Both the position numbers and the translations under genes were made by a program. Shown here piece after piece: positions 704-63,681 of a DNA stretch of 64,000 nt. The first letter of the stretch is position 1; every line of letters begins with the position of its first letter. A model generated the notes under the pieces. That model was not told the DNA's origin, searched no databases, and saw only the letters and a program-made list of their open reading frames with translations. Source of the DNA: Lingula anatina (Eukaryota; Animalia; Brachiopoda); contig CM120644.1 of NCBI GenBank assembly GCA_051362555.1, positions 12,484,567 through 12,548,566 on the forward strand, given 5' to 3'.

Positions 704-3150
704 TTAATCAACAAGTGGACCATAAAAATTATTGTATTTGTTGTTTGGATCTTCGGTAAGCCAGAACTCAAGAAAACCTTCTGCAAACTCTTCAAATGTG
801 ATGAGACCATTTTTGTCTGTGTCCATTATATCAAACATTTCATTTGAACATTGCTTTGGAACCTTTAAGCCGTAGAAAAAGGCAACATGCTCATCCTTGG
901 AGACAATGCCGTCGTCATCAATGTCCATCATCTTAAAGTCCCCGGAAACGAAGCCATGGTACAACTCTGGTCTAGAGCGACTTTGGATGGTGAGTGAATG
1001 GATGCTCTGCAGGTATTCATCCTCAGTGATTTTGTTTTTGTTTCCAGCAATTCCTACCCAGCGATGAAGGCATTTGTCTATAACGTGTTTTGCCTTTTCA
1101 CCTAATAGTAAAACATACGCTCGAACAGTTTCAACAAGTTTTTTGTAATCAGAGAATCAGGTCTTATAGACGAATTTTTCGTTTGTGATGTCGAGCCTCG
1201 GATTTGTGATCTCGAAACCCCGGATTAACGACTCTAACCATGGTTTCAGGGCACGAACGTAAAACTGGTGTCCACGAGCACCACATTACAAAAAACAAAC
1301 TGATAATCAGCATCGGTACATTCCGCATTTGCCGGGGATTGTCCAAAACGCATTACTCCTGTATTAATACGCAGCATTTGATACTTGATGTCAGAAATTC
1401 ATCAGTTTGATTTCTTTTGAAGAGTTTTTTGATTTAGTTTTAAATTTATTTTAAAGCAAATACATGCATGCTGCAGACAGTAAAACTTCCACAGCAGCCG
1501 TTGCAATGTAAACTGTGGGCTTTTGTGTATTTTCCACACAACTCACGTATTTAATCTAGTTTAAGCTTTAAGTGACCTCAGCAACTAACATCACTTTCCT
1601 CATTAAATTATGTTTTTGAAGCTGTAGCCACTTTATCAAGCCTTGCTGTAGACTTCATTCTTTCGTTAAAGAATCTCCAAAAAAATTCTTTCGACTAGGT
1701 ATCTTCAAAGCACTAACGTGCAGTTTCTTTTAACTTCCGCCATATTGATAATACATGTAGTTCGGGATGAAGAGAAAAACATTTGTACAGCTGGAGATCC
1801 GGATGAATTTGGCTGAACAGTTCGTGTTCTTTTGATGCATTGCTTGTTGCCACTATAACCTTAAGTTCGTGCCATGAAATCGTGGTTTGAGACGATAATT
1901 TGGGAGTTCGTACTAAAAATCTGAGGCTCATGATCGCAAACGAGAGTTATTTTTTATGAGGCATAATAATTGTTGTAGGACATTTATGCAGCAATAAAGT
2001 GACACACACACTTCAATCGCCTTACTTTTTGTCAGTGCAGACAGAAATTTAACAAGGTGTGCTCTTTTAAGATACTCAAAAACCGTGCCCTCTCTTAATA
2101 ACTTAAACAGTTCAATTTTTGTATTTCCTGATAACTCTGTCTGTTAACGAATCAGCAAAAATGGATAAGGAGATCTTCATTAATGAAATGTGCACGTACC
2201 ATCAAGGCTCCTAAATTCTGCAATGCGCCTCCCAAGGGCTATAAAATCTTCTTCAGTTACGTATCCATCAGTGTTTGAATCATACCGTTTATACAAATTA
2301 CGAACTTTTCTCTTCCAGTGTTCAGATCCGGTAACACATGGAAAATCTGAAGGCAGCTGAAATGATATTAACCATTTTTTTTCAATTTTCTTTAATCTAT
2401 TTACTCAATTATGGTTACTATCGTATCTAAACCTCATGTATTATTATTATTATTATTATTATTATTATTATTATTATTATTGCACGTGTTACTACTACTA
2501 CTACATGTACTAACACTGGTACTACTTCTACTACTGCTTTGGAACATCTAAATCTAAAGTTCAAAATAAAAAGAAACCGTGCTCCAACCCGTGTTCACAA
2601 TTCAGCGTCCCTTATTTTTTCTGAAATCACATGTTTTATGTACATTTTGATGGTCTATCGATGATTCTTTTTAAAGGTCCTATGCAGCTTACCTGTATGT
2701 TCTTTTTGATTATGCAATATACATTGTGGGTAAAGGTACAACTTCTTGTTAGTGCAAACTAAGTATTCTTTCTCGCCCATCATAATATAAAAAGGGCCAA
2801 AGATTTATATCATCAAAATATGTACATCTCCTGTACTTTGAACATATTCATGTAAAGGTAATTGGTTTTCCTCCAGTACCTTTTTAGACATTCAAAAAGA
2901 AAAAATACTTTGAGTATCTGTAAAACTCTACTGCGACTAATACCATAAACGATTACTTTTTCAGCCGACTTACTTTTCCAAGACGCAGTGTTCCAGTTGT
3001 CAGCCTCCGGACAGGTTGTGGGTATGGCTCAGGTTGGAGGACATTATTTAATCTCGAAGTAGGTTGAACGAATTTTGTTAATCCCCAGCTCGATTTGATA
3101 CCCCGAACTAAACCCCAACTGCGCAATGCGGTGTTTGACATGACCAACAT
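704..3150 (-). CDS. EF-hand protein gene 1 (SCP/luciferin-binding protein-like, subfamily A); exons 3150-2974, 2356-2200, 1101-704; about 243 aa
   Basis: Exons join in frame at GT-AG sites (GGAAAA|gtaagt, phase 0; tttcag|CTG...GATG|gtacgt, phase 1; attag|GTGAA). EF loops are DSNTDGYVTEED, DIDDDGIVSKDE and DTDKNGLITFEE. GSEHWKRKVR and terminal FYGPLVD resemble annelid SCP and Renilla luciferin-binding protein. The start shared by all three A genes (MSN, 3141) may be the true start. Confidence 0.9.
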
Positions 3151-6100
3151 TTTGAATTAGGAAACACTATGGTCTCACCTAAGTCCTTTGCTTTTCTGTT
3201 ACCCCAAACATCTAGTTGCTTTAATGTAACAGGACCAACCAAACTGCATGTAATATAAAACAAGGATCATTTATCCACATGCGAAAAAGTATCATTTTAT
3301 TTTCAAAAGGTGCTATGTCACGGTACACATAACAAGTGACAATAAGAATAAGAGGTGAACGTTCGGCGACCCATGTGACCTTGAATGATTCAAACGACTT
3401 TAAAGGTATCTTATGACAGCCTATAAGTATGGAGGAGAATTTATTATAAGTTCCAGGCTCATTTGAATTTTATAAAACTCGTACGAGCATATATTATTAT
3501 TATTATTATTATTATTATTATTATTATTATTATTATTCCATGTAACAGGGCATTGAAATTCGGTGATAGCATTTTTTCTTAACCTACACGATGTGATTGT
3601 GTTTGACCCCAATGAAAGGTGAAAAACAGAACTGAACTAGAACAGTGAATATTTGTCATTACCACAGTCAATTTTATCGAAAGTTTTGTGACGAATTTCG
3701 CAGTAAACTTATTAATTATATCTACTTAATGTATAACTTTTAACTCTATTAACAAGTATAGAATGAAACGGGAGAATAAAGTGGAAGGTCAGAATGAATG
3801 TTTCACAAACTGTGAGCGTCACTTATGCGACTAAGAGAGTCATATTTTTGCAAAATGATTTATCAACATCGTAAAATCACCTGACATAGGTCATCAGCAT
3901 GAATAAGGTGCTACAATATGGGCATGAAGGAATTTCAATTCTTTACACTTTTAGGTGTGTTCGGTGAACCAGACACTAACGTCACATTCATCATTTTTAG
4001 ATCAACATGTGGAACCCTGCAAAGATGTAAGTTAAACATTTAGTGCGTAACGGAGGAGTTAAAAGTGTCTATTTGCTGTGGCCTTGGTATATTTAGGCAC
4101 AACACGCCTTTGAAGGTGTTGCTGCCTTGGATGTGACGTGACAGACCACATGATAGAGAGTCCGGTTCCCATTAATTTGTGCCGGTAAGCCTCACCCTAG
4201 ATTTTGACCTACTAACGTCAGGCTAACCCTAACCTGTTTAATTAAATGGAAGGTGGAATCTCTGTTACACGGGCCCTTAGCTTCGTCACAACGGGACATG
4301 TATTATTATTATTATTATTTTATTTTTTTTGTAACGTGTTCCAATATTTTTGTACTGATTCATAATCGTAACGTATGTTTTCCTGAAAAATGTACGAAAA
4401 AGACCATATCTGAACATGTTTATTCTACAACATTATACTTGTAAGACATAAGGACGAAAACCAGTGCTGCTCAAATTTTCAAAGTGCATAAGATACCTCT
4501 GCAGCCGAAAGTTTTCCATTTGTAACGCAAATTATGTGCCTTTTGGGGGTAAGAAGATGATTTTTAAATTTTAATTCACGGTTTAAGGGCAGTGAAACTT
4601 TCATACGAACTTCTGTGAGACTATAAATTACCAAACACAGATATCTGGATATTAATATGTACACTCAATATTTTATATGCACGCCTGTAACTTCATTTGC
4701 ACCTCTACAGTGGATTAGTGCGTTTTACAAACTAGAGTGATTGCTTTTATGTAGCCAAATGTTCACAAGCACAACGAAGCTCTGTTTTTGCTCCAAATTA
4801 AGTAAGATAAGTCCATATGACTGAAATTGTCATTTATTAATGACGAAAAATAAAAAGATACAAAGTAACAAAACTGGGGAGATAATAAACATCCCCCAAA
4901 CTATATAAGTGCTAAATATAAAAATAATAAAGTAAGTTAATGAAATGTAACCAGGATTAATTATGAAAAATATGAGAAATCACAGCAGCTATAGGAGCAA
5001 AAAGTTGGCGCAAATGAAAATAAAAGGCCTTTGTTACAAAACTGGGGAGATAATAAACATCCCCCAAACTATATAAGTGCTAAATATAAAAATAATTAAG
5101 TAAGTTAATGAAATGAACCAGGATTAATTATGAAAAATATGAGAAATCACAACAGCCATAGGAGCAAAAAGTTGGCGCAAATGAAAATAAAAGGCTTATG
5201 AAAAATATGAGAAATCACAACAGCTATAGCAGCAAAAAGTTGGCGCAAATGGTTGGCGCAAATGAAATTAAAAGGCATAATGCATATTCGAAAGCCGGCC
5301 TAGGCTGAGAGCGAGCTACGCAACCCCTACCTATTTAGGACGGGGACGTAGGTTTCCTCATTGCTCTGACAGCCCAATCATAAAGTCGTCTCTCTTGGCC
5401 TACGTACTGCCACATATGCCCTGCATAGTACATTTACCTAACTATAGTTTTAAAGTAATAATCTCACATGTATGATATATATCAATAAACAAACGATAAC
5501 CAGATAATCTGAAATGACTAATTAATGTGCCAATTGAGTTATAGCTAACAAGCATAAATACAACAATGTTACATTGAGCCAATGCTCAAATCTGCTTCAT
5601 TAGTCATGAAAAGAGAAAAAAATATGGGGGGGGGGGAGTTTGAATAAGTTTACCAAACATCACCTTAAAAATTTCACTCCTGAATAATGCACTTCTTAAT
5701 GTTGTGAATTTTACGAGAAAAGTGAGGGAGAGCATTAACTGTCTCCTGAATAACTGAACTCTTATGCCTCGGATTAGCAGGCCTTCCAGAGGCAAAGTGG
5801 CACTGTCCAATTAGGTGCCCCCTTAATTATGTCACACAGGTGCCGCTTGAAAGTAAATAAGTCTAAGTTTTAAAAACACCACAAGGATGAAGACAGGTGG
5901 TAGGGGAGGGTGGAGGGTGTACAAATAACAATAAATAAACGTAAGTAATAATACAGTGTAGCTGCTAAAACTGCGGGTAAATATATCCGCAGCTACAAAG
6001 CTGAATGACTTCTCACTGAATGCAGCTCGATGGAATTAATCTCCAAAACATCTTTCATAGAATATACTTGTGTGTGCCTAGATACACAGCAGCTAAGACA

Positions 6101-63474: not shown

Positions 63475-63681
63475 ATGCTGAATATGTCCAGACTTATTCA
63501 ACACCGCCTGCTTGGGCTAGCGATGATAGGACCACCTAACAGAAAATATGGAAGATTTATCCTACTTGCACAAAACTTATCAAAGAAGATACAGCCGCCC
63601 GTATTTGTTAAACAAAGGGAAATGACGCCAGTTATCCACCTCAAGCAAGGCCTGGTGAAACAGTCATGGCGTTTTAGAAAG
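63475..63681 (+). CDS. Exon 1 of EF-hand gene 9 (rest of the gene presumably beyond the window)
   Basis: Near-identical to gene 8 exon 1, with donor AGAAAG|gttagt, followed by a copy of gene 8 intron 1 up to the window end. Confidence 0.8.

What the first reader, a model, noticed from the sequence alone, without database searches (positions are those of the whole stretch)
704..63681. Expanded head-to-head array of SCP/luciferin-binding-like EF-hand genes, each intact copy with a mitochondrial-presequence-like first exon
Seen: at least 9 paralogs in two divergently transcribed clusters with identical intron phases. Each intact gene has a separate exon 1 encoding 50-75 aa rich in R/K/L/S/T, with few acidic residues and no hydrophobic signal-peptide core. 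Subfamily A leaders end in PVRRLTTG, an R-2/R-3-like processing motif. Known: classical SCPs and Renilla luciferin-binding protein begin at about the position of exon 2 and are soluble proteins without a leader; the hydrozoan photoprotein clytin-II is a mitochondria-targeted member of this superfamily. Inference: a lineage-specific family of mitochondrial Ca2+ buffers, or of Ca2+-triggered small-ligand carriers, possibly linked to bioluminescence or pigment handling.
Basis: partly seen in the sequence, partly recalled or inferred. Interest (0 to 1): 0.85.

Follow-up and report, generated by a model that had tools for sequence, protein, structure and literature searches.

The report
Mitochondria-addressed calcium-binding gene cluster
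The brachiopod Lingula carries a tandem cluster of genes for a calcium-binding protein that is normally cytosolic, here each with an extra first exon predicted to address it to mitochondria, where it would likely buffer calcium.

Summary
Observation confirmed with small corrections. The window is a Lingula locus with 7 intact three-exon SCP-fold genes (3 minus, 4 plus; intron phases 0,1), one copy with a truncated exon 1 and a LINE in intron 1, one cut by the window end, and relics. Exon 1 (54-74 codons, net +8 to +14) is coding: no frameshifting indel in 18 paralogue pairs, and RNA reads splice it in frame to exon 2 in both subfamilies (reads from diverged paralogues). 8 of 9 leaders keep an R-x-L/M-A/T processing-like motif. 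Composition alone barely beats non-coding ORFs, and no targeting predictor or localisation was available. The core is closest to Nereis SCP, with three intact EF-hands. The expansion is wider than this locus (20 named Lingula records, 10 scaffolds), but the leader idea is not unique: a pan-arthropod SCP group and a third clade carry similar leaders, clytin2 is a published precedent, and this scan noted a calexcitin-like case on other DNA. No paper found characterises them. Best reading: imported matrix Ca2+/Mg2+ buffers (about 0.5). Bioluminescence is unsupported.

The parts
704..3150 (-). Gene A1: exons 3150-2974 (leader, 59 aa), 2356-2200, 1101-704; 243 aa
   Evidence: RefSeq counterpart XP_013399034, 95% in the core
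16522..21456 (-). Gene A2: exons 21456-21295 (leader, 54 aa), 20807-20651, 16919-16522; 238 aa
   Evidence: donor 21295 used by RNA reads
24065..24402 (-). Frameshifted relic of an A-type exon 3; RNA reads over it carry indels relative to the window, so they come from a related copy
25165..28454 (-). Gene A3: exons 28454-28284 (leader, 57 aa), 27644-27488, 25562-25165; 241 aa
   Evidence: low read depth on all three exons at 84% likeness
31440..31704 (+). Degenerate B-type exon-1 copy (stops, frameshifts) upstream of B1; similar relics near 38610-38697 and 48270-48377
32303..33741 (+). Gene B1: exons 32303-32524 (leader, 74 aa), 32907-33060, 33344-33741; 257 aa
   Evidence: RefSeq XP_013399004, 99% in the core
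37063..37284 (+). Orphan intact B exon 1 with most of its intron 1 (to about 38613) but no exons 2-3 of its own
   Evidence: 30 reads join its donor to an exon-2 acceptor
39299..41289 (+). Gene B2: exons 39299-39520, 40484-40637, 40898-41289; 255 aa
   Evidence: RefSeq XP_013398984
44855..46363 (+). Gene B3: exons 44855-45076, 45547-45700, 45963-46363; 258 aa
   Evidence: RefSeq XP_013398983; acceptor 45547 used by reads
49076..58223 (+). Gene B4: 5'-deleted exon 1 (first in-frame ATG 49155, donor 49214), LINE-interrupted intron 1, intact exons 57466-57619 and 57802-58223
50430..56416 (+). Full-length LINE (ORF1 334 aa; ORF2 1227 aa, endonuclease plus reverse transcriptase; poly-A; 13-bp target-site duplication) inside B4 intron 1; not part of the family
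59863..62084 (+). Gene B5: exons 59863-60069 (leader, 69 aa, lacks the Arg of the motif), 61239-61392, 61663-62084; 260 aa
63475..63681 (+). Exon 1 of B6, a recent duplicate of B5; the rest lies beyond the window
   Evidence: (95-98% identical flanks)

Best explanation
These are tandemly duplicated Lingula SCP-fold genes whose spliced, coding first exon is predicted to be a cleavable mitochondrial presequence, so the three-EF-hand protein would likely act as a soluble Ca2+/Mg2+ buffer in the mitochondrial matrix. Shown: gene anatomy, coding constraint on exon 1, in-frame splicing in family transcripts, SCP fold with loops 1, 3 and 4 intact. Inferred from established import rules: TOM/TIM23 import, MPP cut after R-x, trimming of the following Leu/Met, leaving an acidic core (net -10 to -20) with a 9-19 residue basic stub. 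Inferred: copies are born and lost quickly, and the leader grew by internal 10-codon duplications.
For: Exon 1 has 0 frameshifting indels in 18 paralogue pairs (3 indels, all multiples of 3), while the 150-nt flanks carry many 1-2 nt indels; pooled dN/dS 0.71 against 0.42-0.43 in the core. Exon 1-2 junction reads: B type 30 reads from 23 starts in run X7; A type 6, 7 and 2 reads in X7, X8, X9, frame kept; reads also cover 63 nt above the A3 ATG. RefSeq models include the whole leader for 6 genes of this cluster. The R-x-L/M-A/T motif is in 8 of 9 window leaders (null: 29 of 320 25-residue stretches), and the same class of motif occurs late in the leaders of distant paralogues P0015, P0019, P0035 and P0037. 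10 of 14 named Lingula relatives pass a crude basic, acid-poor, non-hydrophobic N-terminus rule. The leader is unfolded in the model (pLDDT under 50 for 1-69). Core: Nereis SCP E 3.9e-26, Foldseek 3.2e-9; three canonical loops in 7 of 7 genes. Precedent: clytin2 (PMC4043110, passages).
Against: No targeting predictor or localisation test was available. Leader charge and amphipathicity are not clearly above the local null. The paralogues are not independent observations. B5 lacks the motif's Arg; P0016, P0017, P0020 and P0022 lack the motif late in the leader. Junction reads come from diverged paralogues or alleles, not the window's own copies; B1 and B2 exons had almost no reads at 92% in 4 runs, and 4 of the 7 runs laid gave no junction (X1, X3, X4; X5). 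Depth was only about 1-15x per 11 million records, low for a bulk buffer in these samples. All six B leaders hold an in-frame Met that could start a short form, as three RefSeq models do. Many diverging copies (core dN/dS up to 0.78) fit ligand diversification as well as plain buffering.
Confidence: 0.5

Rival explanations
1. Imported into mitochondria, but the main job is Ca2+-gated binding or modification of a small hydrophobic ligand in the SCP cavity, with paralogues tuned to different ligands.
For: The next-best relatives are ligand handlers: Renilla coelenterazine-binding protein (E 8e-19) and okadaic-acid-binding protein (1.9e-17) by profile; juvenile hormone diol kinase Z 20.0, about tied with SCPs at 18.8 and 18.3. 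Fast divergence among copies. The column matching Renilla Tyr36 varies among paralogues (F, Y, K, I, L, V). Tandem expansion with relaxed or positive selection is reported for octocoral LBPs (PMC13401004, passages).
Against: Nereis SCP is the top sequence hit. No ligand is indicated by any test. A shared fold shows no function.
Confidence: 0.17
2. The proteins are ordinary cytosolic SCP buffers: translation mostly starts at the internal Met (B) or at a Met opening exon 2, or the basic leader tethers the protein to membranes or another compartment.
For: In-frame Met late in all 6 B leaders; RefSeq XP_013399000, XP_013398996 and XP_013398998 start there; B4 keeps only that part; the expressed A-type paralogue has Met as the first codon of exon 2; P0018 and P0024 are leaderless relatives; composition is near the null.
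Against: The upstream part of exon 1 keeps its frame in every intact copy; A1-A3 have no in-frame Met between the N-terminal cluster and exon 2; that B Met is the hydrophobic residue of the R-x-M-A/T motif, which explains its conservation; short-leader relatives (P0019, P0037) look like standard presequences.
Confidence: 0.25
3. A bioluminescence component: photoprotein or coelenterazine store in mitochondria, like clytin2.
For: Same superfamily; one RefSeq model is auto-named luciferin-binding protein; clytin2 precedent.
Against: Photoproteins rank far below SCP (berovin 1e-11 against 3.9e-26; 13-18% identity). Renilla Arg19 and Lys139, recalled as ligand contacts, align with L/V/M/Q and H/F/C. 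I recall no report of luminescence in Lingula (not searched).
Confidence: 0.03

Closest known systems
Nereis diversicolor sarcoplasmic calcium-binding protein (PDB 2scp, 1q80); Pinctada SCP (9l5m)
   Same: Top sequence and Foldseek hit; same length of core, EF loops 1, 3, 4 intact with Asp at position 12 of loop 1, no canonical loop 2, C-terminal GPLV
   Different: Starts at about exon 2 with no leader; about 29% identity; here many tandem copies with a 54-74 residue basic leader exon
Renilla coelenterazine-binding protein (2hps, 2hq8)
   Same: Full-length alignment from the start of exon 2 to the C-terminus; Z 16.5
   Different: 21-22% identity, no leader; recalled ligand contacts not kept
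Clytia clytin2 photoprotein (PMC4043110)
   Same: SCP-superfamily protein that gained a mitochondrial leader; co-localises to egg mitochondria
   Different: A photoprotein; the paper says its leader is not on a separate exon; about 15-17% identity to clytin in the fold searches
Arthropod leader-bearing 'sarcoplasmic calcium-binding protein' group (e.g. Bombyx P0208, Anopheles P0246, ostracod P0081)
   Same: SCP core with N-extension in 120 of 120 listed; R-x-Y/F-S in 95 of 120
   Different: Separate clade (100/98), leader with an acidic SDSD patch and no visible homology; annotation is automatic, no study found
Okadaic-acid-binding protein 2 (4wri), juvenile hormone diol kinase (7pjd), calexcitin (2ccm)
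   Same: Same fold (Z 13.4, 20.0, 15.9)
   Different: 18-26% identity; functions not tested here

Membership tests
Invertebrate SCP (Nereis type) | About 175-190 residue compact four-EF-motif fold | tested here: met
   core 181-191 aa; model matches 2scp TMt 0.89, rmsd 2.4
Invertebrate SCP (Nereis type) | Three canonical loops (1, 3, 4), loop 2 degenerate | tested here: met
   7 of 7 intact genes give exactly three canonical loops
Invertebrate SCP (Nereis type) | No leader; soluble cytosolic protein | tested here: not met
   54-74 residue spliced leader; localisation itself untested
Invertebrate SCP (Nereis type) | High-affinity Ca2+/Mg2+ binding | not testable with these tools
   needs a binding assay
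Cleavable mitochondrial matrix presequence | N-terminal, net basic, acid-poor, no long hydrophobic core | tested here: met
   net +8 to +14, hydropathy at most 1.07 over 17 residues; but 1-30% of non-coding ORFs match the charge
Cleavable mitochondrial matrix presequence | Amphipathic helix | tested here: inconclusive
   moment 0.59-0.84, reached by 47-265 of 500 shuffles; short helices only at low pLDDT
Cleavable mitochondrial matrix presequence | R-2/R-3 MPP motif before the mature domain | tested here: met
   8 of 9 window leaders; null 29 of 320; the rule itself is recalled knowledge
Cleavable mitochondrial matrix presequence | Directs import and is cleaved | not testable with these tools
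   no TargetP/MitoFates, no experiment
Renilla-type coelenterazine-binding protein | Ligand-contact residues (Arg19, Tyr36, Lys139; identities recalled) | tested here: inconclusive
   not kept in the HMM alignment, but identity is about 21% and the residue list is from memory
Ca2+-regulated photoproteins | Peroxy-coelenterazine-stabilising residues and light emission | not tested
Arthropod leader-bearing SCP group | One clade with it | tested here: inconclusive
   separate clades in both trees; AU p=0.0495; deep nodes weak

The most novel reading that the evidence does not exclude
SCP-fold proteins were sent to the mitochondrial matrix several times in animals (brachiopod, arthropods, a third clade, hydrozoan clytin2) and form an unrecognised class of soluble matrix calcium buffers; Lingula, a calcium-phosphate shell builder, amplified its version to about 20 genes, possibly to manage mitochondrial calcium-phosphate loads.
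Probability: 0.3. Interest if true: 0.8.

Novelty: new variant of a known kind. Interest (0 to 1): 0.5.

Why it matters
Matrix calcium is usually thought to be buffered by phosphate rather than by a dedicated soluble protein (recalled knowledge). A three-site EF-hand buffer with an import signal would change that picture for invertebrates, and the arthropod group makes it testable by genetics in insects. For Lingula it offers a candidate link between mitochondria and calcium-phosphate handling; that link is speculation, as tissue expression is unknown.

Tried and rejected
Composition and hydrophobic moment as proof of targeting: rejected, not clearly above null. A shared bidirectional promoter: unsupported, ATGs 3.85 kb apart. 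Orphan exon 1 splicing over B2 into B3: more simply reads of a paralogue like XP_013398981, since the exon 2-3 junction letters match it rather than B3; not excluded. The intron-2 start of RefSeq XP_013399819: treated as a prediction artefact, not tested. The careful 95-row tree did not finish; one search is the quick tree, a careful 49-row LG+G4 tree (rows thinned by hand; multi-domain and partial hits left out). Literature: searches gave 0 papers; some searches gave listings with nothing on targeted SCPs by title or abstract start. The Lingula genome paper (PMC4595640; passages and the first hits in its supplement) has no 'sarcoplasmic' or 'luciferin'; PMC13425148 (passages) has no 'sarcoplasmic' or 'mitochondri'. 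Two Drosophila proteome supplements list Scp1 but also cytosolic proteins, and not CG1435 (a recalled guess at the fly orthologue, unverified): uninformative. A Drosophila matrix-proteome paper was not held. Subscription papers and bioRxiv supplements could not be seen. Rfam: 0 matches. The Atlas answered once (Bombyx protein: top cluster Arthropoda); no taxa were obtained for the third clade or for the sisters of the Lingula clade.
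Full report
Identity. Exon-3 searches return Lingula anatina RefSeq proteins named 'sarcoplasmic calcium-binding protein(-like)' or 'luciferin-binding protein' at 59-99% identity. Eleven of these 12 records sit on one 469-kb scaffold. The names are automatic.

Anatomy. tblastn and manual splice reading give 7 intact three-exon genes with GT-AG introns, phases 0 and 1, 238-260 aa. 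B4 has intact exons 2-3, but its exon 1 lost its 5' part and a full-length LINE with a 13-bp target-site duplication lies in intron 1. B6 is cut by the window end. An orphan exon 1, a frameshifted exon 3 and three exon-1 relics show frequent gain and loss. The units duplicated with their flanks; B5 and B6 are 95-98% identical.

Is exon 1 real? Across 18 paralogue pairs exon 1 has 3 indels, all multiples of 3, and no stop; the flanks have many 1-2 nt indels and mostly lower identity. Pooled dN/dS is 0.71 for exon 1 in both subfamilies against 0.42-0.43 for the core: weak but present constraint, as expected for a targeting peptide (established knowledge). RNA: at 92% likeness, run X7 gives 30 reads from 23 starts joining a B exon-1 donor (37284) to an exon-2 acceptor (45547); X1, X3 and X4 give none. 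At 84%, X7, X8 and X9 give 6, 7 and 2 reads leaving the A donor at 21295 and entering exon 2 through 28 divergent letters that replace 28, so the frame holds; X5 gives none. These reads map best to exons of different copies, so they come from diverged paralogues or alleles. They show that the family splices the leader, not that each window copy is expressed. The P3 libraries gave reads on both strands about equally, tissues are unknown, and depth is low.

Is it a presequence? The leaders are basic (+8 to +14), acid-poor and lack a signal-peptide core, and are disordered in the AlphaFold model. Against this, non-coding ORFs of this AT-rich window are also basic (mean +3.5, n=220), so single leaders reach only P 0.014-0.3 on charge, and the hydrophobic moment is not above shuffles. 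The better evidence is positional: R-x-L/M-A/T lies 12 (A1, A2, A3) or 22 (B) residues before the exon end in 8 of 9 leaders, against 29 of 320 in null stretches, and recurs in paralogues about 40-45% identical (P0015, P0019; unnamed P0035, P0037). A1 and A2 show a 30-nt internal periodicity (0 and 1 of 1000 shuffles; top lag of 49 tried), also P0035 and P0015 at protein level, but not A3 or the window's B copies. I chose that lag after seeing the sequences. It suggests growth of a short (about 28 aa) leader by 10-codon duplications.

Core. Nereis SCP is the best hit by phmmer, profile and Foldseek; VIA-align puts juvenile hormone diol kinase (Z 20.0), Pinctada SCP (18.8) and Nereis SCP (18.3) on top, Renilla CBP at 16.5 and clytin at 14.8. 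All 7 genes have three canonical loops, with Asp at position 12 of loop 1 as in Nereis SCP; A2 also has Asp there in loop 4.

Family range. A profile search of 1.84 billion representatives (best 150 of 8960 listed) found more Lingula members: of 10 looked up, 8 are Lingula records on 8 further scaffolds. With the 12 above, that is 20 named records on 10 scaffolds; some are partial or duplicate models. By a crude rule, 10 of 14 named members (13 of 17 with three unnamed proteins that I assigned by similarity) have a presequence-like N-terminus; P0024 and P0018 have none. Outside Lingula, an alignment of 9 leader-bearing hits retrieved 353 proteins; the 120 listed, named ones all insects plus one ostracod, have at least 20 extra N-terminal residues in 120, pass the rule in 70 and hold R-x-Y/F-S in 95 (no null for the last count; the query favoured leader-bearing hits). 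Three unnamed proteins form a third leader-bearing clade. Of 71 other hits, 4 passed the rule, 2 of them Lingula partial models. Trees give Lingula (99/96, including one unnamed leaderless protein), arthropods (100/98) and the third group (99/92) as separate clades with weak deep nodes; forcing Lingula with arthropods gives AU p=0.0495. Repeated gain is favoured, not shown. Within Lingula, A groups with P0017 and B with P0016, so the two facing clusters are not each other's closest kin.

Literature. PMC4043110 (passages): clytin2 and GFP2 co-localise to egg mitochondria, leaders of 30-50 aa, clytin2's not on a separate exon, targeting then thought restricted to hydrozoans. PMC13401004 (passages): octocoral LBP tandem expansion. 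PMC12040472 (passages): CBP has three Ca2+ sites, no contact list seen. Searches for a mitochondria-targeted SCP found nothing. One earlier scan note describes a calexcitin-like protein with a similar leader in another marine invertebrate (not checked).

Verdict. Real, coding, spliced leader on an SCP-fold core, amplified in Lingula. Most likely imported matrix calcium buffers (0.5); cytosolic or other use 0.25; ligand carrier 0.17; luminescence 0.03. The parts are known and the targeting has a precedent and uncharacterised parallels, so this is a new variant of a known kind, interest 0.5.

Noticed in passing
window 50430-56416 (+): Apparently intact, recent LINE: ORF1 334 aa, ORF2 1227 aa (Exo_endo_phos_2, RVT_1), poly-A tail, 13-bp target-site duplication.
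   Followed up: partly
proteins P0073, P0074, P0081, P0095, P0110, P0113, P0166-P0279: Widespread arthropod SCP group with a 50-130 residue leader, an R-x-Y/F-S motif and an acidic SDSD patch; looks mitochondrial, no study found; a good insect-genetics target.
   Followed up: partly
window 1313-1914, 17125-17739, 25730-26323 (-): Intron 2 of the A genes holds a block conserved at 69-80% with long ORFs; RefSeq XP_013399819 starts in it. Possible alternative exon or just duplicated intron.
   Followed up: no
window 21602-21800: A roughly 190-nt element with about 2000x RNA read depth and loose ends, just upstream of A2 exon 1; likely a transcribed SINE or MITE; no Rfam match.
   Followed up: no
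window 10172-11700 (-): Fragmented ORFs resembling a decayed retroelement (no Pfam hit at 0.01 for the two pieces tested).
   Followed up: no
window 12718-13099 and 34302-35036: Tandem repeat arrays (about 75-nt and about 165-nt units).
   Followed up: no
protein P0098: An unnamed SCP-fold hit with a signal-peptide-like N-terminus, so the fold has also been routed to secretion.
   Followed up: no
window 43951-44457: Short ORFs resembling the 3' end of a LINE reverse transcriptase between B2 and B3 (no Pfam hit).
   Followed up: no
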